From Armatimonadota bacterium (GTDB taxonomy: Bacteria > Armatimonadota > Fimbriimonadia > Fimbriimonadales > GBS-DC): a stretch of DNA of 64,000 nt. The stretch covers positions 1 through 64,000 of the forward strand of contig JBBIJY010000008.1 in the NCBI GenBank assembly GCA_037445735.1, given 5' to 3'. A model generated the notes under the pieces. The model searched no databases. It was not told the origin of the DNA and saw nothing but the letters and a program-made list of their open reading frames with translations. A program made the translations under genes and the position numbers. Below, one piece after another: positions 9,452 through 41,199 of this stretch (the first letter of the stretch is position 1; every line of letters begins with the position of its first letter).

Positions 9452-9847
9452 ATGATGACCGACCCGATTGCCGATATGCTGACCCGAATACGGAACGCTT
9501 CGCGGGCGGGCAAGCCCGAAGTGAACCTGCCCAGCTCGAAACTGAAGGAGCAAATCGCTGCCCTGCTCAAGCAGGAGGGCTTCATTCAGGATTACAGGGT
9601 GCAGCGCACAGGCGTCCACGCCACACTCACCCTCACGCTCAAATATACGCCCGAGGGCGAGCCGGTCATCCACCACATCGAGCGGGTGAGCAAGCCTGGA
9701 CGCCGGGTGTACGCCTCGGTGGACGACCTGCGCCCCATCCAGCGCGGGCTGGGCACCGCAATCGTGTCCACATCCAGAGGCTTGCTGCCTGACCGCGAAT
9801 GCCGTAAACAACGCATCGGCGGCGAAGTCGTCTGCATCGTCTGGTAA
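9452..9847 (+). CDS. rpsH: 30S ribosomal protein S8
   Basis: TDPIADMLTRIRNA, SKPGRRVY, GGEVVCIVW. Confidence 0.98.
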   Translation: MMTDPIADMLTRIRNASRAGKPEVNLPSSKLKEQIAALLKQEGFIQDYRVQRTGVHATLTLTLKYTPEGEPVIHHIERVSKPGRRVYASVDDLRPIQRGLGTAIVSTSRGLLPDRECRKQRIGGEVVCIVW

Positions 9848-11642: not shown

Positions 11643-12088
11643 TACAGTTGCACGATTTGAAGCCTGTACCAGGTAGCAAGAAGCGTCGCAAGCGTGTGGG
11701 GCGCGGCATCGGCTCCGGGCACGGCAAGACCGCCGGGCGCGGCACCAAAGGGCAAAAGGCGCGCGACACCATCCCGCCCCGCTTCGAAGGCGGTCAAACG
11801 CCCATCCATCGCCGACTGCCTGTGCGAGTCGGCTTCAAAAACATCAATCGCACCGAGTACGCGATTGTGAATGTGGGCACGCTGGCAGCGCGATTTGAGC
11901 CGAACGCCGAAATCACGCCCGGACTGCTCCTGAAGAAGCGGATCATCCGCAAACTCAAAGACGGGCTGAAAGTGCTGGGCGAGGGCGAGATTAACTTCCC
12001 CATCACGGTGCGGGCACACGCCATCAGCCAGTCCGCCCGCGCCAAAATCGAAGCGGCGGGCGGGCAGGTCATCCTGCTGGAGGAATAG
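11639..12088 (+). CDS. rplO: 50S ribosomal protein L15
   Basis: [38 protein letters not shown]. Confidence 0.98.
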
Positions 12089-12091
12089 AGC

Positions 12092-13396
12092 ATGCTCAGC
12101 ACCAACTTCGTCTCGGCGCTGCAGAGCGCGTGGAAACTGCCCGACCTGCGGGCACGCATCCTGTTCGTGTTCGCGATGTTCACCGTGTACGCCGTCGGGC
12201 TGCATATCCCCGTGCCTGGCGTCGATAGAGAACAACTGGCTCGGATTTTCCAGAATCAGGAGTTGCTACAATTTCTGAACATCTTTACGGGGGGCGCGCT
12301 GCGCCGCCTGACCATCCTCGCACTGGGGCTGAACCCCTACATCACCGCCTCGATCATCATGCAGATTTTTTCCTATGCGGACCCGCGCATGCGGGAGGAG
12401 ATGCGCGAGGAAGCGGGACGCCGCAAAATGCAGCAGCGCACCCGCCTGCTCACCATCCTGATTGCATTCATTCAGGCAATTGGCTTCCTGTCCACTTTCC
12501 GCTCGGCTGGCGTGCTGGAGGTTTCCGGTGTGCAGATGGCGCAGGTCATCATCGCATGGGTGGCGGGCGCGATGTTCCTGCTATGGCTTGGCGAGCAGAT
12601 CAACGAGAAGGGGCTGGGCAACGGCATCTCGCTGATGATCTTCGCCAGCATCGTCGCCAGCATGCCCTATCAGGTGTCGCGCACCTATGAGCTGGTGGTG
12701 AATGGCACCGTGACGATGTTCCAGGTGCTGCTGCTGCTGGCGATTTTTGTGGGCACGGTGTGGGGTGTTATCTATGTGACGATGTCGCAGCGGCGCATTC
12801 CGATTCAGCACATGCGGCGCATCATCGGGCGGCGGCAGACGGTCGGCGGCACCTCCTATCTGCCCATCCCCGTGAACGCGGCGGGCGTGATCCCCATCAT
12901 CTTCGCCGTCTCGCTGCAACTGCTGCCCGCGACCATCCTGCAGATGCTGCCATACGACCGCGCGAACCCGCCCACATGGGCAATCTGGGTCAACAGCATC
13001 CTCACCATCCTGACGCCCGGCGGAGGCGTATGGGGGTCGCTCATCTATGCGTTCCTGATTTTCATCTTCACCTACTTCTATGTGGCGGTTGTATTCAACA
13101 CCGACGAGATTGCGGAGAACCTGAAGCGGCAGGGGGCGTTCATTCAGGGCGTGCGCCCGGGCAAGCCGACCGCCGACTACCTCAACGATGTGCTGACGCG
13201 CATCACGGTGGCGGGCGCACTGTTCCTCGCCATCGTCGCCCTGCTGCAATACTGGGTTCCCGACCTGACCCGTATCCAGACGCTGACGATTGTGGGCGGC
13301 ACCTCGGTGCTGATTCTGGTCGGCGTCGCTATCGACTTCGCTCGCCAGTTGCAGGCGCAGCTGGCGATGCGCCAGTATGAAGACTTCCTGAAATGA
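12092..13396 (+). CDS. secY: Preprotein translocase subunit SecY
   Basis: HIPVPGV, LGLNPYITASII, GLGNGISL, GVIPIIFA, GVRPGKPT, GGTSVLI; multi-TM. Confidence 0.98.
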   Translation: MLSTNFVSALQSAWKLPDLRARILFVFAMFTVYAVGLHIPVPGVDREQLARIFQNQELLQFLNIFTGGALRRLTILALGLNPYITASIIMQIFSYADPRMREEMREEAGRRKMQQRTRLLTILIAFIQAIGFLSTFRSAGVLEVSGVQMAQVIIAWVAGAMFLLWLGEQINEKGLGNGISLMIFASIVASMPYQVSRTYELVVNGTVTMFQVLLLLAIFVGTVWGVIYVTMSQRRIPIQHMRRIIGRRQTVGGTSYLPIPVNAAGVIPIIFAVSLQLLPATILQMLPYDRANPPTWAIWVNSILTILTPGGGVWGSLIYAFLIFIFTYFYVAVVFNTDEIAENLKRQGAFIQGVRPGKPTADYLNDVLTRITVAGALFLAIVALLQYWVPDLTRIQTLTIVGGTSVLILVGVAIDFARQLQAQLAMRQYEDFLK

Positions 13397-19634: not shown

Positions 19635-20900
19635 ATGCGCCTTCTGTTAGTTGGCGGCGGCGGACGCGAACACGCGCTCGCATGGAAACTGGCTCAAAGT
19701 CAGAGCTGCGAGCGGCTGTTCGTTGCGCCCGGCAACGTGGGCATCGCCGCCATCGCCGAGTGCATCCCCATCCCGCCTGGGGACATCCCCGCGCTGGTGC
19801 GATTCGCCCGCGAGCAACGCATCGATCTGGTGGTGGTCGGTCCCGAATCGCCGCTGATTGCGGGGCTTGCGGACGCCCTGCAGGAGAGTGGCATCCCCTG
19901 CTTCGGTCCTTCACGCGCCGCTGCCCGACTGGAAGGCAGCAAGGCGTTCGCCAAACAGCTCATGGCGGAACTGGGCGTGCCCACCGCGCCGTTCCGCGCC
20001 TTCGACGACCCCGCCGAAGCCCGGCGCTACCTGCAGGAACGCTTCGCCTATCAGAAATGCGTGGTCAAGGCGGATGGCGAGGCGCTGGGCAAGGGCGCGT
20101 TCGTGTGTGAGACGCTTCAGGACGCGCTGGATGCGGTGGAGTTCCTGATGGAGCAGCGCGGGCTGGGCGAGGCGGGGGCGCGCGTGGTCATCGAAGACCG
20201 CCTGTACGGGCGCGAACTGTCGCTGCTCTGCTTCACCGACGGTCAGGCGGTGTGCCCGATGCCGCCCGTGCGCGACTACAAACGCGCCTTCGACGGCGAT
20301 CGGGGTCCGAACACGGGCGGGATGGGCTGCTTCACGCCCGTGCCCGACGCCACGCCCGCCCTGCTGGAGCAAGCCGTTCAGCAGATTGTTCAGCCCGTCG
20401 TGCGGGCGCTCGCCGGGCGCGGCACGCCCTATCGGGGCGTCCTCTACGCAGGATTAATGATTGTCAACGAACAGCCCTGCACGCTGGAGTTCAACTGTCG
20501 CTTTGGCGACCCCGAAGCGCAGGTGCTGCTGCCCCTGCTCCAGACCGATCTGGTGGCGATTGCGCAGGCGGTGGTGGCGGGCAGGCTGGGCGAGCTGCGC
20601 GTGGCGTTTGATGCCCGCGCGGCGGTATGCGTCGTGCTGACATCGGGCGGCTACCCGGGCGACTACCGCACCGGTCTGCCCATCGAGGGGCTGGAGCGCG
20701 CCCAGCAGATGCCCGATGTGCTGATTTTCCACGCGGGCACGCGCCTGCAGGAGGGGCGCATCGTCACCAGCGGCGGGCGCGTGCTGAATGTGGTCGGGCT
20801 GGGCGACACCCTCCCCGAAGCCCGCCAGAACGCCTACCGCGCTGTCGAACAAATCCACTTCGACGGCATGCACTTCCGCACCGACATCGGTTCAACCTGA
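19635..20900 (+). CDS. purD: Phosphoribosylamine--glycine ligase
   Basis: GGGGREHALAW, LEGSKAFAK, DYKRAFDGDRGPNTGGMG, EFNCRFGDPE, HAGT, GGRVL. Confidence 0.97.
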   Translation: MRLLLVGGGGREHALAWKLAQSQSCERLFVAPGNVGIAAIAECIPIPPGDIPALVRFAREQRIDLVVVGPESPLIAGLADALQESGIPCFGPSRAAARLEGSKAFAKQLMAELGVPTAPFRAFDDPAEARRYLQERFAYQKCVVKADGEALGKGAFVCETLQDALDAVEFLMEQRGLGEAGARVVIEDRLYGRELSLLCFTDGQAVCPMPPVRDYKRAFDGDRGPNTGGMGCFTPVPDATPALLEQAVQQIVQPVVRALAGRGTPYRGVLYAGLMIVNEQPCTLEFNCRFGDPEAQVLLPLLQTDLVAIAQAVVAGRLGELRVAFDARAAVCVVLTSGGYPGDYRTGLPIEGLERAQQMPDVLIFHAGTRLQEGRIVTSGGRVLNVVGLGDTLPEARQNAYRAVEQIHFDGMHFRTDIGST

Positions 20901-21008
20901 ACCCTCAAAGGGACGGGTTCAGAAAGCGAGGGAACCCGACTCCCGAATCGGATTTCCAGCCTCTCGCTCTCTGAGGGCGTTCGAAAAATCCAACCAGAGG
21001 CAAGACTG

Positions 21009-21315
21009 CCCCTCACCCCGACCCTCTCCCCAGGCTTGTTAGCCCCCCTCACCCGTACCCTCTCCCCCGCAGGCGGGGGAGAGGGGGTTTTGTTCCTCCC
21101 TCTCCCCTGTGTCCCCTCTTCCGCAGCTTCGGGCGCGGGGGATTTTGCATGCGCGCGTCGCTCCCCTCTCCCACAGCGTGGGAGAGGGGTAGGGGTGAGG
21201 GGTTTTCTACCAGCGTGAGCCGTTTAGCCCCCTCACCCCAACCCTCTCCCCCAAAGGGGGAGAGGGATTCGGAATCCCCTCTCCCACAGCGTGGGAGAGG
21301 GGCTGGGGGTGAGGG
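21009..21315. repeat. Intergenic array of CCCTC-type palindromic repeats (BIME-like), purD-smc
   Basis: Several units CCCTCACCC..CCCTCTCCC-loop-GGGAGAGGG in alternating orientation. Confidence 0.9.
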
Positions 21316-21383
21316 CAACTTATCCCCCAGATTGCAGGAAACGCGCCGGTAGGCGCGAAACTCCCTGTCAGGACACCAGAACG

Positions 21384-24300
21384 ATGGCACGGACGCTGAC
21401 ACGAATCCGAATCCACGGCTTCAAGACCTTCGCCCAGCGCGTGGAGATCGAACTCAACCACGATCTCGTCGCGGTGGTCGGTCCGAACGGATGCGGCAAG
21501 AGCAACCTCGTCGATGCGATTGTGTGGGCGCTGGGCGAGGTCAGCGTGCGCTCGCTGCGAGCCGCCACGCCGACCGAAGTGCTGTTCAGCGGCTCCAGCA
21601 CCGAGAAGCCGCTCGGCATGGCGGAGGTCACCCTTTGGTTCAATAACGAGTCGCGCTGGCTGCCGCTCGATGTGGATGAGGTTCAGATCACGCGCCGCCT
21701 GTATCGTTCGGGTGAGTGGGAGTGCTGGATCAATCGCACGCCTGCCCGCCTGCGCGAGGTGGCGGAGCTGTTCGCCAACACGGGGCTGGGGCGCGGCGGC
21801 TACGCGATTGTCGGGCAGGGCGAGATCGAAGCCTTCCTGACCGCCGAACCCGACGAGCGGCGCCGCTGGCTCGAAGAGCTGGCGGGCATCGCCTTCTACC
21901 GCCACCGCCGACGCGACACCGTGCGCGACCTCGAATCGACCCGAATCCATCTGCAGCGCGTGGAGGATGTGCTGCGCGAGCTGGAGCGCCAGCGCGAACC
22001 CCTGCGCGAGCAGGCGGAGCGCGCCCTGCTCTACCGCCAGCTGCAACAGCAACTGCGCCAGATGGAGCGCCAGCTGCTCCAGCAGGAACTCGCCCAGCTC
22101 CACCAGCAACTGAGCCAGACGCTCGGCGAACGCCAGCAACTGCGCACGGCGATGGAGCAGGTTCAGCAGGAACTGACCCTCTGCGAGAATCAGGCAGAAG
22201 CGGAAGGTCAGATTGTCGCCCGCCTCGAAGCCGAGATGGAAACCCTGCGGATGCTGCTGCAGAACCAGCTGAGCGCGGAAGAGCGACTGCAGGGCGATTT
22301 GAAAGCCATGCATGAGCGCGAGCGTACCCTGCAGGAGCTGAGGCAGACCCTTGAGGAGGAGACCGCCACACTCCGCGAGCAGGAGAGCCGTCAGGAGCGT
22401 ACCATCCACCTGCTGCAGGCGCGCCTGCAGACTGCCCGCGCCGCGCTCCAGCAGCACCTGCCCCGCCTGCAACAGGCGCGCGCCAGAGTGGACGAGCTGG
22501 AGCAGGTTCGCAGGGATTTCGAGAGCCGCTATCAGCAGGCGTTGCAGGCGCAAGCGCAACGGGAGCAGCGCCGCCGTGAACAGCTCGCTCTGCAGGCGCG
22601 CTTGCAGGAGATCGAGAACGCCGAACCCGCGGCGCAGGCGAGCCTGCAGCGGGCGATCCATGCTTTTGAAACCGCCCTCGCGCACGAGCACGCGCTCCGC
22701 CAGCAACTGAGCGAGGCAGAAGCCGACCATTCGGAGGCGAACCGTCAGCTGGAGATGCGCCAGGCGCAACGGAACGCTCTGAACGCCCGCATCAGCCAGC
22801 TTCAGGCACGGATACAGGCGCTCACGGCGAGCCTGCAGGCAGGTGAGGGCGCGTCGCCCGCCGTGCGCCGCCTGCTCCAGGCGTTGCAACGGGGCGAACT
22901 GCAGGGTGAGTATTATCCCGTCGGCAGCATCCTGACCGTGCCACCTGAGCTCCAGCATGCCGTTGAAGCCGCGCTGGGCGCCAGTGTGAACGATATTATC
23001 ACGCCCACCGAAGCCGAAGCCCGCGCCGCCATCGACTGGCTCAACCGCACCCAGTCGGGTCGGCTCACCTTCCTGCCCCTGAACATTCTGCGCGAGGGGG
23101 ATAGCCCCTCACCCCAGAGGGGAGAGGGGGTTCATTCAGCCCTCTCCCCCAGCGGGGGAGAGGGTACGGGTGAGGGGGCATTTTGCCCCGCGCCTGCGAA
23201 TAGCCCCTCACCCCAACCCTCTCCCCAGAGGGGAGAGGGAGAAACTAATCCCCTCTCCCACAGCGTGGGAGAGGGGGCAGGGGGTGAGGGGGCTTTCCTG
23301 GGCAGGATGCCCAAGCTACGCGAAGAGGGTACGGGTAAGGGGGATGGCGTTCTCGGCTGGGCAGCCGAGATGGTGGCGTATGAGCCGCGCTTCGAACGCG
23401 CCGTGCAGCACCTGCTGCGCCGCACGCTGATTGTGGACACGCTGGAGAACGCCATCCGTCTCCTGCAAGCCCTGCGTCGCGCCCAGCCAGGCGGGCGAAT
23501 CCCGCGTATGGTGACGCTCAGCGGCGAGCTGGTTCAGCCCAGCGGGGTGCTAACAGGCGGCAGATACGGCAGCGAACGCGCCAGCATGCTCGCGCTCAAA
23601 CGCCAGCTGGACGACGCCCGAACCGCCCTGCACGACGCCCAGCACGAATATGCCCGTCAGGAAGCCGAGCTGGACACCCTGCGCCAGCAGCACGCCGAAT
23701 CCCAGCAGCGCGTGGAGAGCCTGCGTCAGGCGTTGCATGATTCCATCCAGCGACGGCTCGCCGCCGAAGCCGAGCGCGCCCGTGCCGAACACGCGCTCGA
23801 CCAGTTGCACAGGGAGCGCGACCGCATCCAGGCGCTACTCCAGCAGATTGAGACAGAGCTTGCCGCTCAGCCGATGCCCGATTTAGCCGCCCTGCAGACC
23901 GAGCGTGACACCATCCAGCAGGCGCACGCCACTGCCCTGCAAGCCCTTACCAGCCTGCAAGCCGAACACGAGGCGCTCCAGCGCGAAGCGGAAGAGACCG
24001 CCGCCCGCCTGCAAAGCGAATCGCAGCAGCTGGAACAGCTTCGGCAACGCCTGCAGAGCCGCGCGGCACGCCTGCAAGCCGTCCAGCAGGAGCAGACGCA
24101 GATTCAGGCGAACCGCGAGCGACTCCAGCATGATAGCGAGACCCTGCTCCAGCAAATCGAAGCCACCCAGGCGCAGCTGGAGGCGCGTCGCGCGGAACGC
24201 CAGCAGCATCTGGAGAACAGCCTGCAGTTCAGTGCGCAGGCGCGTGAGCATCGGCAGACTCTTCAGCATCTGCAGGAGCGCGACCGCGCCCTCGAGCTGC

Positions 24301-25325
24301 GTGCCGCCCGCCTCGAAGTGCGCATCGCCGAGCTTAACGAGCAGTGGCAACGCCTGTTTGGAGACCCCTCACCCCAACCCTCACCCCAGAGGGGAGAGGG
24401 GGTTCATTCAGCCCTCTCCCCCAGCGGGGGAGAGGGTACGGGTGAGGGGGCATTTTGCCCCGCGCCTGCGAATAGCCCCTCACCCCAACCCTCTCCCCAG
24501 AGGGGAGAGGGAGAAACTAATCCCCTCTCCCACAGCGTGGGAGAGGGGGCAGGGGGTGAGGGCATGCCCGTCACCCGCGCCGCGGTCGAGAAACTGCGCC
24601 AAATGGTGCAGGCGATGGGCGAGGTGAACCTCGGTGCCGCCGATGAGTACGCCCGCCTGACCGAACGCATCACCACGCTCACCCGGCAGCGCGACGACCT
24701 CCTCCAGACCTGCGAGCAACTCGAACACACCCTGCGCGACATCGACCGCCACGCACGCCAGCGGTTCGAAGAAACTTTTGAGGCGGCGCGCGTCGCCTTC
24801 CGCCAGCGGTTCCAGCAGCTGTTTGAAGGCGGGCATGCCGACCTGATCCTGACCGATGTGCGCGACCCGCTGAGCGCAGGCGTGCTGATTGAAGCCCAGC
24901 CGCCGGGCAAGCGACGCCAGCGACTGGAACTGCTCTCTGGCGGCGAGCGCGCACTGACCGCCACCGCCCTGCTGTTCGCCTTCATGGATGTCAAGCCCAG
25001 CCCGCTCTGCGTGCTGGACGAGGTGGACGCCGCCCTCGATGGGCGCAATGTGCAGCGGTTCGCCGAGCATCTCCAGCAGATGGCGCAAAGCACGCAGGTG
25101 CTGATCGTGACTCACAACCCCATCACGACCGCCGTCGCCCAGCAGTGGATTGGAATCGCGCTGACGGGCGGTGTGTCGCGCGTGGTGCCCTATGTGCCCC
25201 GACTGTCCGATTCGGAGACTGACGGGCTCGACCGTCGGCGGGCGGTCATCCAGCTCCAGAGCCAGCCGACGCCAGAGCCGACGACTGCGCCGATCAGCCA
25301 GCCGCCCAGCACATCGGAGGGGTAA
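21384..25325 (+). CDS. smc: Chromosome segregation protein SMC with two in-frame palindromic-repeat insertions
   Basis: GFKTFA, Walker A GPNGCGKSN, Q-loop GQG, hinge GRLTFLPL, GEVNLGAADEY, LSGGE, LDEVDAALD, IVTHN; long coiled coils; start set at ATG 21384. Confidence 0.95.
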   Translation: MARTLTRIRIHGFKTFAQRVEIELNHDLVAVVGPNGCGKSNLVDAIVWALGEVSVRSLRAATPTEVLFSGSSTEKPLGMAEVTLWFNNESRWLPLDVDEVQITRRLYRSGEWECWINRTPARLREVAELFANTGLGRGGYAIVGQGEIEAFLTAEPDERRRWLEELAGIAFYRHRRRDTVRDLESTRIHLQRVEDVLRELERQREPLREQAERALLYRQLQQQLRQMERQLLQQELAQLHQQLSQTLGERQQLRTAMEQVQQELTLCENQAEAEGQIVARLEAEMETLRMLLQNQLSAEERLQGDLKAMHERERTLQELRQTLEEETATLREQESRQERTIHLLQARLQTARAALQQHLPRLQQARARVDELEQVRRDFESRYQQALQAQAQREQRRREQLALQARLQEIENAEPAAQASLQRAIHAFETALAHEHALRQQLSEAEADHSEANRQLEMRQAQRNALNARISQLQARIQALTASLQAGEGASPAVRRLLQALQRGELQGEYYPVGSILTVPPELQHAVEAALGASVNDIITPTEAEARAAIDWLNRTQSGRLTFLPLNILREGDSPSPQRGEGVHSALSPSGGEGTGEGAFCPAPANSPSPQPSPQRGEGETNPLSHSVGEGAGGEGAFLGRMPKLREEGTGKGDGVLGWAAEMVAYEPRFERAVQHLLRRTLIVDTLENAIRLLQALRRAQPGGRIPRMVTLSGELVQPSGVLTGGRYGSERASMLALKRQLDDARTALHDAQHEYARQEAELDTLRQQHAESQQRVESLRQALHDSIQRRLAAEAERARAEHALDQLHRERDRIQALLQQIETELAAQPMPDLAALQTERDTIQQAHATALQALTSLQAEHEALQREAEETAARLQSESQQLEQLRQRLQSRAARLQAVQQEQTQIQANRERLQHDSETLLQQIEATQAQLEARRAERQQHLENSLQFSAQAREHRQTLQHLQERDRALELRAARLEVRIAELNEQWQRLFGDPSPQPSPQRGEGVHSALSPSGGEGTGEGAFCPAPANSPSPQPSPQRGEGETNPLSHSVGEGAGGEGMPVTRAAVEKLRQMVQAMGEVNLGAADEYARLTERITTLTRQRDDLLQTCEQLEHTLRDIDRHARQRFEETFEAARVAFRQRFQQLFEGGHADLILTDVRDPLSAGVLIEAQPPGKRRQRLELLSGGERALTATALLFAFMDVKPSPLCVLDEVDAALDGRNVQRFAEHLQQMAQSTQVLIVTHNPITTAVAQQWIGIALTGGVSRVVPYVPRLSDSETDGLDRRRAVIQLQSQPTPEPTTAPISQPPSTSEG
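23105..23344. repeat. In-frame CCCTC palindromic array in smc hinge, with nested GTAG-type REP at 23299-23319
   Basis: Encodes PSPQRGEG...SGGEGTGEG...PSPQPSPQRGEG...GEGAGGEG between TFLPL and GVLGWA. Confidence 0.92.
24365..24562. repeat. Second in-frame CCCTC palindromic array in smc
   Basis: 24378-24562 is identical to 23106-23290 (185 bp, offset 1272 = 424 codons). Confidence 0.92.
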
Positions 25326-25774
25326 TGCACGCCCACATACACGCGCGATAGCCCCACCAGCAGGGGCAGCCACAGCAAGCATATCGCCACGCGCCAGCCG
25401 CCAATCGTGCCTGCCAGCCCCACCAGCGTCGCCATGTTCGTCGCGTGCGCCGATGGAAACGAAGGCGAGGCGAGCCGACCCGTGAGCGGCTCAATCGGCA
25501 ACATGATGCAGGGACGCTCGCGACCCACCCAATCCTTCAACCAATCGCACAGCTCGTTGGACACAATCAGAGCGGGAATCAGCAACAGCGCAAACAGACG
25601 CCATCTGCCACCCCGCCAGACGAGCCACAACCACAATAACAACGCCCCGATTCGTACCGTCCACCATTTGTTGCCCTCCGAAAGCAACAGCATCAGGGGC
25701 GTGAGCCAGTTCGAGCGCAACCCCTCAAATATCCAGTAGAAAACCTGCGTGTCCCACTGCTGGAGCGTATCCAT
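25190..25774 (-). CDS. PAP2-family membrane phosphatase (undecaprenyl-PP phosphatase-like)
   Basis: KxxxxRxRP (KDWVGRERP), SFPSAH, SRVYVGVHYPSDV motifs; hydrophobic. Confidence 0.9.
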   Translation of the reverse strand: MDTLQQWDTQVFYWIFEGLRSNWLTPLMLLLSEGNKWWTVRIGALLLWLWLVWRGGRWRLFALLLIPALIVSNELCDWLKDWVGRERPCIMLPIEPLTGRLASPSFPSAHATNMATLVGLAGTIGGWRVAICLLWLPLLVGLSRVYVGVHYPSDVLGGWLIGAVVGSGVGWLWSWMTARRRSSPSVSESDSRGT

Positions 25775-25849
25775 CTGCCAGAGATGATTCAGCGTTCTAA
25801 CGGCAACCCCCTGCTATTGGGAGCGGGTATAATCGGGCTGGTGAGCAGA

Positions 25850-26629
25850 ATGGCGACGCTTTCTGCCGGAACCAGACCGAAGAAGCGCAGGCGCACTCCC
25901 GCCGTGCCCGTGCCGCGCCTGCCCCGTATCAAACTCATCGATAGCGACGGTGAACCGTTGGAAAGCGAGTGGCATGTCTATCAGATGTGGCTGCTGCTGG
26001 AGCTGACGCGCCAGCACTGGAAGGGGCGCACCGACTTCTTCTGCGCCGCCAATATGTTCGTCTACTACAGCCTCAAGCAAGCGCGCGCCATCAAAAAGGG
26101 CAGCCGTGTCGCCTTCCGCGGTCCCGACTTCTTCATCGTGAAGGGCGTGGATGGGCAGAGGCTGCGCAAATACTGGGCGGTATGGGAAGAGGACGGCAAG
26201 ATGCCGAACCTCGTGATTGAACTCCTCTCGCCCACCACAGCCGCCTACGATAAGACCGAGAAGAAGGAGTTCTACGCGACTGTGTTCCACACCTACGAAT
26301 ACTTCTGGTTCGATGGCGAGCGCGACTTCGCAGGTTTTCGACTGATGGGTGAGGAGTATGTGCCGATAGAGCCAAACGAGCGCGGCTGGCTGTGGAGCGA
26401 GGTGCTGGGCGCATGGCTGGGCATCTGGGAAGGGGTCTATCTGGGGCGGCGCTACCGCTGGCTGCGCCTCTTTCGCGAAAACGGCGAGATGGTGCCCACC
26501 CACGCCGAACTGATGCAACAGTACCAGCAGCAAGCCGAAGCGGAGCGCGCCAGAGCCGAAGCCGAACGCCAGCGGGCGGAACGGCTGGCACAACGCCTGC
26601 GCGAGCTGGGCGTTAAACCCGATGAATGA
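25850..26629 (+). CDS. Uma2-family (DUF820) putative endonuclease
   Basis: DSDGEPLESEWH, GPDFFIV, PNLVIELLSPTT, EYFWFD, C-terminal RAERLAQRLRELG coil; GGTATAAT upstream. Confidence 0.85.
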   Translation: MATLSAGTRPKKRRRTPAVPVPRLPRIKLIDSDGEPLESEWHVYQMWLLLELTRQHWKGRTDFFCAANMFVYYSLKQARAIKKGSRVAFRGPDFFIVKGVDGQRLRKYWAVWEEDGKMPNLVIELLSPTTAAYDKTEKKEFYATVFHTYEYFWFDGERDFAGFRLMGEEYVPIEPNERGWLWSEVLGAWLGIWEGVYLGRRYRWLRLFRENGEMVPTHAELMQQYQQQAEAERARAEAERQRAERLAQRLRELGVKPDE

Positions 26630-26642
26630 GGTGTGAATCGTC

Positions 26643-27404
26643 ATGATTATGCGTATCGCGCTGGGGATTGCAGGATCTGGCATGCTGGTGCTGACGGCGC
26701 TCGCCTTCTTCTGGGTGCCACCTGCGCAAAACTTTCAGGACCCTGGCTCGGCGCGGATTGTTCTGTTCCATGTGCCTGCGGCAATCATCTGCGTGCTGTG
26801 CTTTCTGATGGGCGGATTCTTTGGCTGGCGATATTTGCGACGGCGCGACATGCTGGACGACGCGCGGGCGAACGCCGCGAATGAGGTCGGGATGCTGTTC
26901 GGCATTCTCACCACGCTCACGGGCATGGTGTTCGCCAGCCAGCAGTGGGGCAAGCCGTGGCACTGGGACCCGCGCCAGACCACGATCTTGATTCAGCTGC
27001 TGATTTATGCGGCGTATTTTGCGCTGCGGGCGGCGGTGGAGGACGACCGCCAGCGGGCGTCGTTGAGCGCAGGCTACACGGTGTTCGCCGCGCTGACCGT
27101 GCCGTTCCTGATCTTCGTGTTGCCGCGCTTGCCCGCAATCGCCGAGCGCTCGCTCCATCCGAGCAATGTGCTGGCGCAGAAGGGGGGACTCGACTGGTTC
27201 TACCGCAGTGGCATCTATCTGGGCTTTTTGACTTACGGCGCGCTCGCCGTTGCGCTCTATCGGCTGCGCGTGCAGCTAACCCGACTGGAGGAACAGGCGC
27301 ATGAGCTGGCAGATCGCCTTAAGCGTGAGCATCGCCATCGTGTGGGCTGGCATCTTCGCGTACCTGCTGTGGCTCCACGCGCGGATGGCGAGGCTTCAGA
27401 ATGA
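26643..27404 (+). CDS. ccmC: Cytochrome c biogenesis heme exporter CcmC/CcsA family
   Basis: IVLFHVPAA, WWD-domain-like WGKPWHWDPRQT, SLHP; multi-TM. Confidence 0.82.
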   Translation: MIMRIALGIAGSGMLVLTALAFFWVPPAQNFQDPGSARIVLFHVPAAIICVLCFLMGGFFGWRYLRRRDMLDDARANAANEVGMLFGILTTLTGMVFASQQWGKPWHWDPRQTTILIQLLIYAAYFALRAAVEDDRQRASLSAGYTVFAALTVPFLIFVLPRLPAIAERSLHPSNVLAQKGGLDWFYRSGIYLGFLTYGALAVALYRLRVQLTRLEEQAHELADRLKREHRHRVGWHLRVPAVAPRADGEASE

Positions 27405-27456
27405 ACTGGATCGTTTGACCCCGCCCCGTGAAGAGCCATCGTCAAGCGCGGATTAG
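27301..27456 (+). CDS. CcmD-like small membrane protein (not in ORF track), overlapping ccmC 3' end
   Basis: Manual translation MSWQIALSVSIAIVWAGIFAYLLWLHARMARLQNELDRLTPPREEPSSSAD*: one TM helix plus charged tail; GGAGG upstream. Confidence 0.68.
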   Translation: MSWQIALSVSIAIVWAGIFAYLLWLHARMARLQNELDRLTPPREEPSSSAD

Positions 27457-29911
27457 CGGACTGCTGATCGGGCTGTTCTGGCTGCTGCTGCACGGTCGCC
27501 TGCTGGCGGGCGAGCTGTTCTGGGGCGACGCGGGCATCTACTTCTACCCGATGTGGGAGTTTGTGCGCCGCTGCCTGCTGAAGGGCGAGCTGCCCTTTTG
27601 GAACCCCTTCATTAATGGCGGTCAGCCGCTGATTGGCAACCCGCAGATGGGCGTGTTCTATCCCACCACGCCCCTTCTCTACTGGCTCCCTACCGAGCGA
27701 TGGCTGAGCCTCGTCACCGCGTTGCACCTGCTCTGGAGCGGTGTGGGGATGGCGTTCTGGCTGCGGGCGCTGGGTTGTGGTGAGCTGGCGCGGGCGTGGG
27801 GCGCATGCGTCTGGATGGGCTGTACGGCAGTGGTTGCACGGGCGCAGTTCCCCCCGTTTCTGATGACGATTGCCTGGTATCCATGGGTGCTGTGGGCAGT
27901 GGAGCGCGTGTGGCAGCAGCCTGGCATGCGTTCGATGCTCTGGCTGGCGCTGGTGGGTGCGCTCTGTCTGATGGCGGGGCATCCGCAGGGCGCGTACCTG
28001 ATTGCGCTTGGCGCTCTGCTCTACATCGGCGTGCGCTGGTGGGCAGATGGGAGTTCCGCGCGTCAGGAGAAACGGCGCACGCTGGGCTGGCTGCTGGGTG
28101 CGGGATTGCTAACGCTGGGGTTGAGCGCGCTCGACTGGTTGCCCGCCAGCGCGGTCGGCGCACTCTCCAACTATCATCAGATGTCGCTCGGCGAGGCGCA
28201 GCGGTTCCGATGGTACTTCGCCAATCTCGGCACGCTGCTCTATCCCTTCCTGTGGGGCAACCCGATGGGCTTGTATGTGGCGAAGGGCAACTACTGGGAG
28301 TCGGCGGCGTTTATCGGCACAGTGCCGTTGCTGCTGGTGCCCTTCGCGCTGGGGCGCGGGCGGCAGGTTCGGCTGGGCTGGGGGCTGGGGCTGATCGCGC
28401 TGCTGATGGTCTGGCTTGCGCTGGGCACAGACGGTGGGCTTTACACGGTGGCGTTTCACTACCTGCCAGGCATGCGCATGTTTCACGATCCGGCTCGCTG
28501 GCTGCTGATTGCCTGCCTGATGCTGACGGCGCTGAGCGCGCTGGGCTATGAGCGGGTGATGCCCTCACCCCCTTCCCCTTCTCCCGACGCTGCGGGCGAG
28601 GGGGCTAACCAGTCCCTCGCCCCCAGCGGGGGAGAGGGCACGGGTGAGGGGGCGTCTCACCTCGCGCCTGCAACCAGCCCCTCACCCCAACCCTCTCCCC
28701 AGAGGGGAGAGGGAGTTTCCAAAACCCTCGCCCCCAGCGGGGGAGAGGGTACGGGTGAGGGGGTATCGCCGAGCCTCTGGCTGGGGTTGCTGATTGCTGG
28801 CGTGGGGCTGTGCCTGCTGATGGCGATGGTGCCCCACACGCGCACAGGTACTGCATGGCAGCGGGCGTTTCTGACCCCGCGCGCGGCGGAAGATTATCCC
28901 CAGCCGTCGGCGGAGCAGATGCTGGAGGTGGCGCGGCGCGGCTGGCAGCAGGGCGCGCTCTGGCTCGGTGCATCGCTGGGACTGCTCGCGCTCGCCTGGC
29001 GGCTGCCACGCTCGCGTGCCCTGCTGCTGTGGCTCGGCTTCGCGCCCCTGCAACTCTATGCAGTCTACTGCTCGCTGCCCGTTGCGCCTGCAGGCAGCTG
29101 GGCGAAGGCGAAGCGCATGTTGCACGCCCCTGGTGAACGCTGGTGGTATCCGCAAACCTATGACGGCTGGCGACGCCATATCTCCTATCTCACCTATGCG
29201 AACACGAGCCCGGCGCAGATGGTGGGGGCATGCATTCCGAATCTGCCCATGCTGTTGCCTGCCAGCGTGTGGGGCGCGTATGAGCCGCTTGCGCCCCAGC
29301 GCGTGAGCCGAATCGAGCGACGCCTGCAGATCGCTGCCTCTATTGCGACAGAGACTGGCTCGCCATCGGTGCGCGCTCACCTTGAACGCTGGCTTCAGGC
29401 GCTGGGCATCGGCTGGAGAGCGCGCCTGCAAAGCGCTCAGGCGCGGTTTGAGCGGTTAAAGCCCCCGTGTGCGCCTGTGCAGGTGGTGTCGCAGGCGGTG
29501 CCCGTGAGCGATTTTGAGCAGGCGTTGCGCCAGTTTCGGCTGGAGCGGGGCGATGTGTGTCAGCGCGTGCGCGTGGAAGGGTTGAACCGCGTGGTGCAGT
29601 CAGCGGGCGGGCGAATCGAGCGCATCGAGCGGCGCAACGACAGATTGCATATTCGCGTGTCGTGCGCAAGCGAATCGGTGCTGGTGGTGCGCGAGACGCT
29701 ATTGCCTGGATGGCGGGCGTGGATCGATGGGCGACCTGCGCCGCTGCGCTATGCGGAGGGCATCCTGCGGGCGATAGTTGTGCCCGCTGGCACGCACGAG
29801 GTGCAGATGCGCTATCGCCCGCCTTACTGGGAGGCAGGGTTGACGCTCTCGCTCATCAGCGCGCTTTGCTGGCTTGGGGCAGGGTTCAGCCTTCGAACGC
29901 GCCGAAGATGA
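27428..29911 (+). CDS. YfhO-like GT-C-type integral membrane protein with in-frame repeat insertion
   Basis: D...YFYP, GELPFWNPF..GG.P..GNPQ.GVFYP, AGHPQ, F..PARW, C-terminal PGWRAWIDG...VPAGTHEV.MRYRP. Confidence 0.75.
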   Translation: MKSHRQARISGLLIGLFWLLLHGRLLAGELFWGDAGIYFYPMWEFVRRCLLKGELPFWNPFINGGQPLIGNPQMGVFYPTTPLLYWLPTERWLSLVTALHLLWSGVGMAFWLRALGCGELARAWGACVWMGCTAVVARAQFPPFLMTIAWYPWVLWAVERVWQQPGMRSMLWLALVGALCLMAGHPQGAYLIALGALLYIGVRWWADGSSARQEKRRTLGWLLGAGLLTLGLSALDWLPASAVGALSNYHQMSLGEAQRFRWYFANLGTLLYPFLWGNPMGLYVAKGNYWESAAFIGTVPLLLVPFALGRGRQVRLGWGLGLIALLMVWLALGTDGGLYTVAFHYLPGMRMFHDPARWLLIACLMLTALSALGYERVMPSPPSPSPDAAGEGANQSLAPSGGEGTGEGASHLAPATSPSPQPSPQRGEGVSKTLAPSGGEGTGEGVSPSLWLGLLIAGVGLCLLMAMVPHTRTGTAWQRAFLTPRAAEDYPQPSAEQMLEVARRGWQQGALWLGASLGLLALAWRLPRSRALLLWLGFAPLQLYAVYCSLPVAPAGSWAKAKRMLHAPGERWWYPQTYDGWRRHISYLTYANTSPAQMVGACIPNLPMLLPASVWGAYEPLAPQRVSRIERRLQIAASIATETGSPSVRAHLERWLQALGIGWRARLQSAQARFERLKPPCAPVQVVSQAVPVSDFEQALRQFRLERGDVCQRVRVEGLNRVVQSAGGRIERIERRNDRLHIRVSCASESVLVVRETLLPGWRAWIDGRPAPLRYAEGILRAIVVPAGTHEVQMRYRPPYWEAGLTLSLISALCWLGAGFSLRTRRR
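28562..28763. repeat. In-frame CCCTC palindromic array inside YfhO-like gene
   Basis: Encodes PSPPSPSP..GEG..SGGEGTGEG..PSPQPSPQRGEG..SGGEGTGEG between two hydrophobic segments. Confidence 0.9.
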
Positions 29912-39911: not shown

Positions 39912-40168
39912 CCCCTTCACTCCAACCCTCTCCCCAGAGGGGAGAGGGAACGAATCAGCCCTCTCCCCCGCCTGCAGGGAGGAGGGGGTTCTGTGCCCCT
40001 CTCCCCCAAAGGGGGAGAGGGTACGGGTGAGGGGGCTAAGCCGCTTGCGCCTGCAGGAAACCCCTCACCCCCAGCCCCTCTCCCACACTGTTGGAGAGGG
40101 GAGCCACACACTCGCTCGCAAAAACCCCCTCTCCCCAAGCTTGGGGAGAGGGGGCACGGGGGTGAGGG
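39912..40168. repeat. Intergenic CCCTC palindromic array on the left side of the vapBC-like module
   Basis: Several hairpin units; 40011-40100 matches 41027-41116 at 88/90. Confidence 0.9.
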
Positions 40169-40954: not shown

Positions 40955-41199
40955 CCCCCTCGCCCGAAGCATCAGGCGAGAGGGCGTGGGGGCGAGAGCA
41001 CAAAAAATTCTCTCTCCCCTGCAGGTGGGGGAGAGGGTACGGGTGAGGGGGCTAAGCCGCTTGCGCCTGCAAGAAACCCCTCACCCCCAGCCCCTCTCCC
41101 ACACTGTGGGAGAGGGAGGTCTAATCCCCTCCCCCGCAGGCGGGGGAGAGGGATTTTGAACACCCTCTCCCCTTTGGGGAGAGAGCAGGGGTGAGGGGC
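40955..41199. repeat. Intergenic CCCTC palindromic array on the right side of the vapBC-like module
   Basis: Several hairpin units including the 90-bp direct repeat 41027-41116. Confidence 0.9.

What the first reader, a model, noticed from the sequence alone, without database searches (positions are those of the whole stretch)
23106..24562. smc carries two identical 185-bp repeat blocks, one in the hinge and one near the head-proximal coiled coil
Seen: 23106-23290 and 24378-24562 match base for base at an offset of 1272 nt (424 codons). The ~62-aa peptide PSPQRGEGVHSALSPSGGEGTGEGAFCPAPANSPSPQPSPQRGEGETNPLSHSVGEGAGGEG therefore appears twice. Copy 1 lies between the hinge motif GRLTFLPL and GVLGWA. 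Copy 2 lies just before the helix leading to GEVNLGAADEY. Walker A, signature, Walker B and H-loop are intact. Inference: perfect identity implies very recent copying or gene conversion between arrays. Recombination between the copies would delete 424 codons in frame, so the gene has a built-in instability.
Basis: partly seen in the sequence, partly recalled or inferred. Interest (0 to 1): 0.8.

Follow-up and report, generated by a model that had tools for sequence, protein, structure and literature searches.

The report
Twin triplex-motif repeat insertions inside smc
The chromosome-organising gene smc carries two identical, in-frame copies of a known G/C-rich hairpin repeat that is abundant in this genome, adding floppy loops without breaking the gene; this is a fresh example of a known kind of selfish DNA.

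Summary
Window 23106-23290 and 24378-24562 are 185/185 identical, 1272 nt apart, in one intact smc reading frame.

Each is two inverted pairs of the BoxC / PIT / TM_ECO "intrastrand triplex motif" (Holder 2015, PMC4666352). This 2.78-Mb genome holds 228 clusters of it. 51 clusters lie in open frames with coding-like flanks. 13 of 15 such frames tested hold Pfam domains.

Both smc sites tolerate insertions:
- Site 1 is the hinge linker. AlphaFold2 gives pLDDT 27-36 for residues 604-684.
- Site 2 is a Pro-rich break in the C-terminal coiled coil.

The sister species G002 has short, different units at both sites. 7 of 10 relatives have nothing at the hinge site, 9 of 10 nothing at the coil site.

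The 100% identity is unique among 1543 aligned cluster pairs (median 78.7%). Clusters within 5 kb are more alike than distant ones. I read this as recent short-range copying or gene conversion.

Public contigs (k=31) support all four junctions. They cannot phase the interior or show the deletion.

This scan had already reported the same repeat inside other genes of this genome. Interest is moderate to low.

The parts
21291..25325 (+). smc open reading frame (1344 codons from the first GTG; probable true start ATG at 21384)
   Evidence: ORF list and translation. TIGR02168 SMC_prok_B 862 bits against cut-off 567. Pfam SMC_N 36-1292 and SMC_hinge split into 2 stretches.
23106..23290 (+). Identical block, copy 1 (residues 606-667). 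Two inverted pairs of BoxC/TM units in the hinge linker.
   Evidence: 100% identical to copy 2 (D3). Strict TM_ECO pattern hit at 23205-23239 on the minus strand. Unitigs of run X1 cover 22600-23135 and 23261-24407 with 0 differences.
24378..24562 (+). Identical block, copy 2 (residues 1030-1091), in the break of the C-terminal coiled coil upstream of GEVNLGAADEY.
   Evidence: D3. Strict TM_ECO hits at 24366-24400 and 24477-24511 on the minus strand. X1 unitigs 23261-24407 and 24533-25100. RNA fold of 24355-24575 gives -142 kcal/mol, z -7.4.
23099..23345 (+). Whole repeat-derived insertion at site 1: block plus a third partial unit (CTTTCC..GGGCAGGATGCCC..GAGGGTACGGGTAAGGGGG).
   Evidence: The G002-type contig joins 23098 to 23324 with 33 other letters between. 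23324-23345 aligns with the 3' arm of G002's unit. The tail spacer recurs in G002's cluster in the YfhO-like gene. AF2 pLDDT is below 50 for residues 604-684, which is nt 23100-23342.
24365..24562 (+). Whole repeat-derived insertion at site 2 (block plus 13 nt of a 5' outer arm, CCCCTCACCCCAA).
   Evidence: The G002-type contig joins 24365 to 24539 with 50 other letters between. The 3' end GGGGGCAGGGGGTGAGGGCATGCC is shared with G002.
21008..21320 (.). Intergenic cluster of the same repeat family directly upstream of smc. It overlaps the first GTG of the ORF.
   Evidence: cluster 21058-21301, 4 hairpins. 165 nt longer than in G002.
28559..28766 (+). Another in-frame cluster of the family, inside the YfhO-like membrane protein ORF 27428-29911. 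It is 82.6% identical to the smc block.
   Evidence: Pfam YfhO hit on the ORF. 60 nt longer than in G002, with different units.

Best explanation
The two blocks are in-frame, translated insertions of a dispersed G/C-rich palindromic repeat. The unit is the BoxC / PIT / TM_ECO 'intrastrand triplex motif': C-rich arm CCCTCTCCC, loop, GGGAGAGGG, 3-nt linker, GGGTGAGGG. Each block holds two inverted pairs of this unit.

The family is proliferating in this lineage and survives in genes only where the protein tolerates a floppy Gly/Pro/Ser/Glu-rich loop. In smc those places are the linker between the two halves of the hinge and a proline-rich break in the C-terminal coiled coil. Both sites were already occupied by short units in the common ancestor with the sister species.

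In this genome a 185-nt two-unit block was then copied from one site to the other. The direction is more likely coil site to hinge site. The mechanism was short-range, homology-anchored copying, either gene conversion or template switching between the conserved arms. This happened so recently that no substitution has accumulated.

Shown: the identity, family membership, in-frame state, absence in most relatives, predicted disorder, and greater likeness of nearby clusters.

Inferred: translation of the insert, the copying mechanism and its direction, and the risk of a RecA-type deletion between the copies. Such a deletion would give a non-functional smc allele.
For: Identity and frame.

Family membership:
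- Holder's pattern CCCTCNCCC N3-6 GGGNGAGGG N3 GGGNGAGGG (PMC4666352, sections 16 and 18 read) gives 74 strict hits in the genome, 3 of them in the two smc insertions.
- There are 480 inner hairpins in 228 clusters.

In genes:
- 51 of 228 clusters lie in a spanning open frame with coding-like GC1/2/3 on both sides.
- 13 of 15 such frames tested carry Pfam domains: CarB, pyruvate kinase, Mfd, Mur ligases, an M16 peptidase with 3 clusters, and others.

Translation:
- The block is open in only 2 of 6 frames. The frame used gives G14 P10 S9 E7 of 62 residues.
- Of 104 GGGAGAGGG arms in the 51 intragenic clusters, 76 are read G-E-G, 17 E-R and 11 G-R-G.
- Length differences from G002 at the three intragenic clusters are 192, 123 and 60 nt, all multiples of 3.

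Permissive sites:
- Homology to hinge structure 5h69_A is split, with 83 residues where the structure has 15.
- The AF2 hinge model has block-mean pLDDT of 81 or more in all but one 10-residue block of the folded parts, 27-36 for residues 604-684, and no secondary structure there.
- An unrelated genus (G006) carries its own TM-type cluster in the same loop. G005 carries a different hairpin repeat there.

History:
- 7 of 10 relatives have no hinge insertion and 9 of 10 no coil insertion.
- G002 (93.7-96.6% nt identity over the syntenic region) has short, different units at both sites and shares the 3' end of the site-2 element.

Recent local copying:
- The smc pair is the only 100% pair of 1543 pairs aligned over 100 nt or more (median 78.7%, 95th percentile 86%).
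- 17 pairs within 5 kb have median identity 82.6%, against 79.4% for 2057 distant pairs (Mann-Whitney p 2.8e-4, or 8.7e-4 without the smc pair). 6 of the 17 are at 91% or more.

Ongoing burst:
- Strict motif counts are 74 in G000, 16 in sister G002 and 0 in 26 of the 30 relatives searched.
- All 4 clusters in the 34-kb syntenic stretch are longer in G000.

Assembly: in run X1 unitigs reach 30 nt into the block from all four flanks with 0 differences. No near-identical variant of the block interior is listed.
Against: - The interior of the two copies (about 23136-23260 and its twin) is not phased by any data I could see. Logan contigs use k=31 and break on the many family copies.
- Depth of the internal unitigs is 21, 12 and 12.8, against about 16.5 for the flanks. 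That is not the doubled depth two copies should give without G/C bias.
- No RNA or protein data exist, so translation of the insert is inferred.
- The frame bias is partly forced. The G-R-G frame puts TGA in the GGGTGAGGG arm. Arms within one cluster are not independent.
- The near-versus-far test uses non-independent pairs: four clusters on contig C20 give 6 of the 17 near pairs.
- The 5' edge of copy 1 looks chimeric (ATAG + outer arm + second half of a hairpin). A single clean conversion tract does not explain everything.
- The direction of copying rests on one shared 24-nt end.
- No enzyme or mechanism for BoxC spread is known (Holder 2015), and none was found here.
Confidence: 0.7

Rival explanations
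1. Assembly artefact. Both smc sites do hold repeat units, but the assembler threaded the same 185-nt path through both, so the true interiors differ in sequence or length.
For: - The block (185 nt) is probably longer than the reads and longer than any usual k.
- The genome is a 59-contig draft from a metagenome study.
- Internal unitigs in X1 have depth 12-21, not about 33.
- The graph is full of branches to about 200 other family copies.
Against: - All four junction unitigs carry 30 nt of block-specific sequence: unit-A-specific letters after flank A and after the inter-copy segment, unit-B-specific letters before the inter-copy segment and before flank D.
- The block has no internal 31-mer repeat that would allow a shortcut (read from the sequence).
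- No near-identical alternative interior at similar depth is listed for X1 (table 3).
- The unitig 23106-23167 must carry both flows by graph topology, yet has depth only 21. Depth is therefore depressed here regardless.
- Both copies keep the reading frame open in a block where only 2 of 6 frames are open.
Confidence: 0.13
2. Two independent, recent insertions of the same active 'master' composite element by a transposition-like process, rather than copying between the two smc sites.
For: - The family is expanding in this lineage: 74 strict motifs against 16 in the sister species.
- About 40-50 loci share the same two-unit architecture.
- Elements seem to land in or next to existing units. 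Both sites were pre-occupied in G002.
Against: - No third copy of the putative master exists. The best other copy is 84-85% identical, and the 95th percentile of all pairs is 86%.
- High identity elsewhere in the genome is also concentrated in physically close pairs.
- No target-site duplication is visible at the block edges.
- The only Y1 transposase gene is about 5 kb from the nearest cluster.
Confidence: 0.1
3. The twin repeats are a functional device: a programmed in-frame deletion switch for smc, or an RNA or peptide module selected for a role in SMC (flexible linkers, regulated ribosome pausing).
For: - The deletion would be in frame (1272 nt).
- The mRNA segment folds very strongly (-142 kcal/mol, z -7.4).
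- Insertions recur in the hinge loop in three lineages.
Against: - The same repeat sits in many unrelated genes and in intergenic DNA.
- 7 of 10 relatives have no hinge insertion and 9 of 10 no coil insertion.
- The insert sequence is not conserved even between sister species.
- The deletion product would lose half the hinge and one coiled-coil strand.
- Holder 2015 reports, citing earlier work on the same motif (Hoyne & Maher 2002), no promoter or terminator activity for it in E. coli.
Confidence: 0.03

Closest known systems
BoxC / PIT (potential intrastrand triplex) / TM_ECO repeats of E. coli and other bacteria (Holder et al. 2015, NAR, PMC4666352; sections 15, 16, 18, 20 and passages read)
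   Same: - Same sequence pattern, down to the arms CCCTCTCCC / GGGAGAGGG / GGGTGAGGG and the 3-nt second loop.
- Same habit of sitting as inverted pairs.
- Same patchy distribution among close relatives.
- Same link with local length variation between close genomes.
- No associated mobile-element gene.
   Different: - In E. coli K-12 all 23 copies are intergenic (paper, section 18). Here about a fifth of clusters lie in frame inside genes.
- Density is similar to the richest genome in the paper by the strict pattern: 26.6 per Mb here, against 143 copies in Enterobacter asburiae LF7a. With one mismatch per stem the density here is 94 per Mb.
- The paper lists the motif in 262 proteobacterial genomes. 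Here the host is said to be an Armatimonadota bacterium (earlier scan note, not checked by me). One search finds the arms in MAGs labelled Planctomycetota, Acidobacteriota, Nitrospirae, Anaerolineales, Omnitrophota and others.
Intragenic REPs and Rickettsia palindromic elements (Di Nocera et al. 2013, BMC Genomics, PMC3733652; abstract and passages read. The original RPE papers by Ogata and colleagues are recalled, not read.)
   Same: - Small palindromic repeats inserted in frame in known genes, often replication and repair genes, and encoding extra residues.
- Some genes are hit twice (uvrA, uvrB in the paper).
- Thought neutral because they lie in loops or linkers.
   Different: - Different repeat family. 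No GTAG or CGTC tag is seen at the unit ends (inspection sequence).
- The inserts here are larger: 62-82 residues, against 20-30 for REP dimers in the paper.
- The two inserts in one gene are base-for-base identical over 185 nt. The passages I read do not report that.
Bacterial SMC (TIGR02168; hinge structures 5h69, 1gxl; head structures 3zgx, 5xg3)
   Same: Full architecture. The ATPase motifs can be read in the translation (motif names recalled). Hinge and head align with solved structures.
   Different: - About 68 extra residues in the hinge linker. About 45-60 extra residues in the coiled-coil break, by eye from the alignment.
- Relatives without insertions run 1150-1198 aa in the longest open frame.

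Membership tests
BoxC / PIT / TM_ECO intrastrand triplex motif | Sequence pattern 5'-CCCTCNCCC N3-6 GGGNGAGGG N3 GGGNGAGGG-3' (Holder 2015, section 16) | tested here: met
   There are 74 exact matches in the genome, with 3 inside the two smc insertions (23205-23239, 24366-24400, 24477-24511). The other units in the blocks miss the strict pattern only by a 7-nt first loop and pass with relaxed settings (262 hits). The reversed control pattern gives 0 in all 31 genomes.
BoxC / PIT / TM_ECO intrastrand triplex motif | Frequent inverted-pair ('palindromic') arrangement of two units | tested here: met
   Each block is two inverted pairs: outer arms CCCCTCACCCC / GGGGTGAGGGG enclosing two inner hairpins.
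BoxC / PIT / TM_ECO intrastrand triplex motif | Intergenic location (always so in E. coli K-12; a property, not part of the definition) | tested here: not met
   Both smc copies, and 51 of 228 clusters, lie inside open frames with coding-like flanks.
BoxC / PIT / TM_ECO intrastrand triplex motif | Raised local variability between closely related genomes | tested here: met
   4 of the 5 breaks between collinear G000/G002 segments over 34 kb are the 4 clusters. All 4 differ in length and unit content.
BoxC / PIT / TM_ECO intrastrand triplex motif | Forms a purine-motif intrastrand DNA triplex in vitro | not testable with these tools
   Only hairpin folding could be computed.
In-frame palindromic insertions in genes (RPE / intragenic REP kind) | Reading frame kept, host gene otherwise intact, insert absent from orthologues | tested here: met
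   ORF of 1344 codons is intact. 7 of 10 relatives lack the hinge insert and 9 of 10 the coil insert.
In-frame palindromic insertions in genes (RPE / intragenic REP kind) | Insert lies in a surface loop or linker | tested here: met
   Hinge site: a split alignment to 5h69_A and AF2 pLDDT 27-36 with no secondary structure over residues 604-684. Coil site: relatives have a Pro-rich 15-20-residue segment there. No model was made for this site.
In-frame palindromic insertions in genes (RPE / intragenic REP kind) | Sequence membership in the RPE or GTAG/CGTC-tagged REP families | tested here: not met
   No GTAG or CGTC tag flanks the stems (inspection). The units match BoxC/TM instead.
MITE / REPIN (transposase-mobilised miniature element) | Target-site duplications and a cognate transposase (such as a RAYT flanked by the repeat) | tested here: not met
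   No duplication is seen at the block edges. There is one Y1_Tnp gene in the genome (C1:175227-175559), and the nearest cluster is about 5 kb away. Other transposase families were not searched.
SMC (TIGR02168 SMC_prok_B) | Score above the curated cut-off; head, coiled coil and hinge present | tested here: met
   862.2 bits against 567.35. Pfam SMC_N and SMC_hinge are found. PDB hinge and head alignments agree.

The most novel reading that the evidence does not exclude
BoxC / triplex-motif repeats have no known means of spread. The novel reading is that they multiply by short-range, homology-anchored patch copying between neighbouring clusters (gene conversion or template switching at the conserved arms), with no transposase. 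This lineage would be in the middle of a burst: 74 strict motifs against 16 in a sister species about 5% diverged. The identical smc pair would then be a copying event caught before any mutation, giving a donor, a recipient and tract ends that can be read directly.
Probability: 0.35. Interest if true: 0.55.

Novelty: new member of a known kind. Interest (0 to 1): 0.35.

Why it matters
- The E. coli BoxC/triplex motif was described as strictly intergenic and of unknown origin. Here it lives in frame inside core genes of a distant bacterium, even twice in smc.
- Which SMC positions accept 60-80 disordered residues is useful to people who engineer or tag SMC. Those positions are the hinge linker and the coiled-coil break near the head.
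- The zero-difference pair, together with the greater likeness of neighbouring clusters, gives a concrete and testable handle on how these repeats copy themselves.
- For annotation, GEG/PSP-rich low-complexity inserts in proteins of this lineage are repeat DNA, not domains. The first start codon of smc is probably an artefact of the upstream cluster.

Tried and rejected
- **Rfam** (E-value mode, 20500-29500): only sub-threshold matches to microRNA hairpin models and a frameshift element, all far below gathering scores. No curated RNA family.
- **RNA evidence:** no RNA holder is listed among the 4 runs found, so expression and translation could not be examined.
- **Deletion allele:** one search lists no contig with a 23106-to-24378 type joint. 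With k=31 contigs the deleted form is indistinguishable from the intact graph, so this says nothing. Several joints with sides under 30-40 nt and 'opposite strands' joints come from other copies of the family.
- **Depth as copy number:** abandoned. Contig depths sum other loci and are depressed in the G/C-rich block.
- **Intein or intron reading:** dropped. The insert is low-complexity Gly/Pro/Ser/Glu with no splicing motifs, and the same DNA occurs in intergenic regions.
- **RAYT link:** the single Y1_Tnp gene is not flanked by the repeat.
- **Donor outside smc:** the 33-nt tail of site 1 has only 18-25-nt matches elsewhere in this genome. It turned out to be a spacer variant of the family, seen in G002.
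- **Taxon:** the genome-contig scan leaves out the window's own records. I did not verify the phylum named in earlier notes.
- **Literature:** I searched for the motif inside coding regions. I found nothing on BoxC/TM in genes beyond Holder 2015 (intergenic only) and Di Nocera 2013 (other REP families). Supplementary tables of both papers were not seen and may list intragenic cases.
- **Not used:** Complex prediction, the protein database searches and the viral collections, because the question did not need them.

Full report
**1. Observation**

The window holds two stretches, 23106-23290 and 24378-24562, that are identical over all 185 bases and start 1272 bases apart (family D3; sequence). 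Both lie in one open frame, 21291-25325 on the + strand, 1344 codons. Both are read in the same phase. They give the same 62-residue peptide at residues 606-667 and 1030-1091.

The protein is a bacterial SMC:
- TIGR02168 scores 862 bits against a cut-off of 567.
- Pfam finds SMC_N over residues 36-1292 and an SMC_hinge match split into two stretches.
- The Walker A, Q-loop, signature, Walker B and H-loop residues can be read in the translation (motif names recalled). The head aligns end to end with B. subtilis SMC head structures.

The first start codon (GTG 21291) lies inside a repeat cluster. The likely true start is ATG 21384.

**2. What the blocks are**

They are not private to smc. Each block is built from outer arms CCCCTCACCCC / GGGGTGAGGGG that enclose two inner hairpins CCCTCTCCCC-loop-GGGGAGAGGG, and this arrangement occurs twice over. 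The RNA or single strand folds at -142 kcal/mol, z = -7.4.

The same unit occurs as 480 hairpins in 228 clusters across the 2.78-Mb, 59-contig genome. One cluster sits directly upstream of smc (21008-21320). Another lies in frame in a YfhO-like gene at 28559-28766.

A full-text search for the arm sequences led to Holder et al. 2015 (PMC4666352; I read sections 15, 16, 18, 20 and passages). The unit is their TM_ECO motif, earlier called BoxC and PIT, with pattern CCCTCNCCC N3-6 GGGNGAGGG N3 GGGNGAGGG. That exact pattern hits 74 times in this genome, 3 of them in the two smc insertions. With one mismatch allowed per stem it hits 262 times. Rfam has no family for it.

The paper reports the following:
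- 3610 copies in 262 proteobacterial genomes.
- 23 copies in E. coli K-12, all intergenic.
- No link to mobile elements.
- A stable triplex of the single strand in vitro, but not shown in vivo.
- Raised local variability among E. coli strains.

After I had reached this reading, I looked up the scan's earlier notes. They report the same family in frame inside mfd, murE and other genes of this same genome, and call the host an Armatimonadota bacterium. I did not verify the phylum.

**3. The repeat inside genes**

Of the 228 clusters, 89 lie in an open frame that extends at least 50 codons on both sides. 51 of these also have coding-like GC1/GC2/GC3 on both sides.

I picked 15 of the multi-hairpin cases, and 13 carry Pfam domains:
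- carbamoyl-phosphate synthase large chain
- pyruvate kinase
- Mfd
- two Mur-ligase proteins
- an M16 peptidase with three separate clusters
- a histidine kinase
- a purple acid phosphatase N-terminal domain protein
- a GH20 protein
- YfhO
- DUF3866
- an FAD oxidoreductase
- SpoIID

Two had no hit.

The frames in which the repeat is read are far from even. Of 104 GGGAGAGGG arms in the 51 intragenic clusters, 76 are read Gly-Glu-Gly, 17 Glu-Arg and 11 Gly-Arg-Gly. The last frame is partly excluded by a TGA in the neighbouring GGGTGAGGG arm. The 76:17 split is not explained that way, and it suggests selection on the peptide. Arms within a cluster are not independent, so this is a hint and not proof.

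The smc block is open in only 2 of its 6 frames. The frame used gives Gly 14, Pro 10, Ser 9 and Glu 7 of 62 residues.

**4. Where the insertions sit in SMC**

*Site 1, the hinge.* Sequence alignment to the Geobacillus hinge structure 5h69_A is split. Query residues up to about 602 align to chain residues 30-124, and residues from about 686 align to chain residues 140-242. So 83 residues stand where the structure has 15.

I made an AlphaFold2 model of residues 495-800 from an alignment of 11 sequences. The folded hinge has block-mean pLDDT of 81 or more in all but one 10-residue block. Residues 604-684 have pLDDT 27-36 and no secondary structure. They lie between the FLPL strand and the VLGW strand.

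*Site 2, the coiled coil.* This site lies in the C-terminal coiled coil, just before MPVTRAAVEKLRQMVQAMGEVNLGAADEY. Homology to solved head and coiled-coil structures resumes within about 40 residues after the insert. In relatives this position holds a proline-rich 15-20-residue segment, which is a natural break in the helix. I recall that this region is near the SMC 'joint', but no call tested that.

**5. Relatives**

I fetched smc from 10 relatives.
- At the hinge site 7 of 10 have no insertion: G001 and G003 of the same genus, and G012, G009, G017, G011 and G004.
- G002, the sister species, has a short single unit at the hinge site.
- G006, another genus, has its own TM-type cluster in the same loop. 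G005 has a different hairpin repeat there.
- At the coil site 9 of 10 have nothing. Only G002 has a short unit.

G002's contig C31 is collinear with window 1-34324 at 93.7-96.6% nucleotide identity. 4 of the 5 breaks between the six collinear segments are exactly the four repeat clusters. All four are longer in this genome, by 165, 192, 123 and 60 nt, and they carry different units.

At site 2 the last 24 nt of the element are shared with G002. At site 1, window 23324-23345 matches the 3' arm of G002's unit. Both sites were therefore occupied before the two species split, and both were remodelled afterwards.

The strict motif count is 74 here and 16 in G002. It is 41 in one genome of another family of the order, 1 in each of two others, and 0 in the remaining 26 relatives. 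The reversed control pattern gives 0 everywhere. The family looks to be in a burst in this lineage.

**6. Why the two blocks are identical**

Flanking smc DNA differs from G002 by 3.6-6.3%. Two copies that had diverged since the split would be expected to differ at several positions in 185 nt. They differ at none.

I compared the 72 clusters of at least 100 nt with each other:
- 1543 pairs align over 100 nt or more.
- Median identity is 78.7% and the 95th percentile is 86%.
- The smc pair is the only pair at 100%.

High identity elsewhere is also concentrated in neighbours. 17 pairs within 5 kb have a median of 82.6%, against 79.4% for 2057 distant pairs. The Mann-Whitney p is 2.8e-4, or 8.7e-4 without the smc pair. 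6 of the 17 are at 91% or more. These pairs are not independent: four clusters on C20 give 6 of them.

No third copy of a 'master' element exists. No target duplication is visible. The only Y1-transposase gene is about 5 kb from the nearest cluster.

The simplest reading is short-range copying anchored in the conserved arms, by gene conversion or template switching. The smc pair is the freshest case. The shared ancestral 3' end and the complete first unit at site 2 favour site 2 as donor, but weakly. The 5' edge of copy 1 looks chimeric.

**7. Is the assembly right?**

Four runs of one study (subsurface metagenome) hold the stretch. All are kept as k=31 contigs and none is RNA.

In run X1 (96% of sampled words, depth about 16.5), unitigs cover 22600-23135, 23261-24407 and 24533-25100 with no differences. 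All four flank-block junctions are therefore supported 30 nt into the block, including unit-specific letters. Three internal unitigs cover the interior with no differences, at depth 21, 12 and 12.8.

The first of these internal unitigs must carry both copies by graph topology, yet it is not doubled. Depth is therefore depressed in this G/C-rich DNA and cannot count copies. No near-identical alternative interior is listed. The interior is still not phased per site, and I leave about 13% for a threading artefact.

Runs X2 and X3 hold the G002-type organism on a 7079-nt contig with the short alleles at both sites. That confirms those alleles independently.

**8. The 'built-in instability'**

The arithmetic holds: 1272 nt is 424 codons. 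From general knowledge (recalled), 185-bp direct repeats are adequate substrates for homologous recombination. Holder et al. link the motif to local instability.

The deletion would remove the second half of the hinge and the entire C-terminal coiled-coil strand, so it would destroy SMC rather than vary it. The data on hand could neither show nor exclude such an allele.

**9. Comparison with what is known, and verdict**

In-frame palindromic repeats inside housekeeping genes are known from Rickettsia (RPE) and from GTAG/CGTC REPs. They include genes hit twice and a bias to replication and repair genes (Di Nocera 2013, PMC3733652, abstract and passages). The repeat family here is the known BoxC/TM motif.

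What is new:
- This family sits inside genes. My three literature searches found no report of that. Supplementary tables were not seen.
- The inserts are large.
- The two inserts in one essential-type gene are perfectly identical.
- Neighbouring clusters resemble each other more than distant ones.

This scan had already found the same repeat inside other genes of this genome, so the smc case adds an instance and a mechanistic hint, not a new phenomenon. I rate it a new member of a known kind, interest 0.35.

Noticed in passing
loci L023-L102, e.g. L057, L046, L071 (Enterobacter), L032, L094: The 31-base core CCCCTCACCCC-NN-CCCTCTCCCC-NNN-GGGGAGAGGG occurs exactly in genomes labelled as many different phyla: Gamma- and Alphaproteobacteria, Planctomycetota, Acidobacteriota, Nitrospirae, Omnitrophota, Anaerolineales, Myxococcaceae and Dormiibacterota. 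Enterobacter copies show the same outer-arm plus two-hairpin architecture as here. Why the same arms recur across phyla is unexplained.
   Followed up: partly
window 21291-21384: The longest smc ORF begins at a GTG inside the upstream repeat cluster and would add 31 repeat-derived residues (VGEGLGVRAT...). The conserved protein begins at ATG 21384. Automatic annotation may over-extend the gene.
   Followed up: partly
G000 contig C20:7036-10251 (L153): An M16-family peptidase ORF of 1072 codons carries three separate clusters of the repeat (7970-8261, 8819-8921, 9584-9692). A fourth cluster lies at 12027-12259. The clusters are up to 91-97% identical to each other.
   Followed up: partly
window 39926-40152 and 40957-41185: Two five-hairpin clusters lie 1 kb apart and share a 90-nt stretch at 97.8% identity. 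This is another close pair that looks locally copied. Their gene context was not examined.
   Followed up: no
L021 (G005 smc), hinge region: G005's SMC hinge carries a different hairpin repeat (peptide STDNPVRA...GRTDNPARA) in the same linker. It also has a TM-like cluster in a second hinge loop (SPHPRAAREGGADSPLPRRRRGDGGEG). SMC hinge loops in this bacterial family seem to collect palindromic repeats repeatedly.
   Followed up: partly
G028 (same order, another family): This genome has 41 strict TM_ECO motifs, with CCG/TTG second loops like E. coli types A and B, while 26 of the 30 relatives searched have none. This is an independent expansion or acquisition.
   Followed up: no
G000 contig C1:174400-176400: The single Y1_Tnp (IS200/IS605-type) match lies in a 327-codon open frame with a long N-terminal extension and a C-terminal helix-turn-helix-like tail. 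It is not flanked by the repeat.
   Followed up: no
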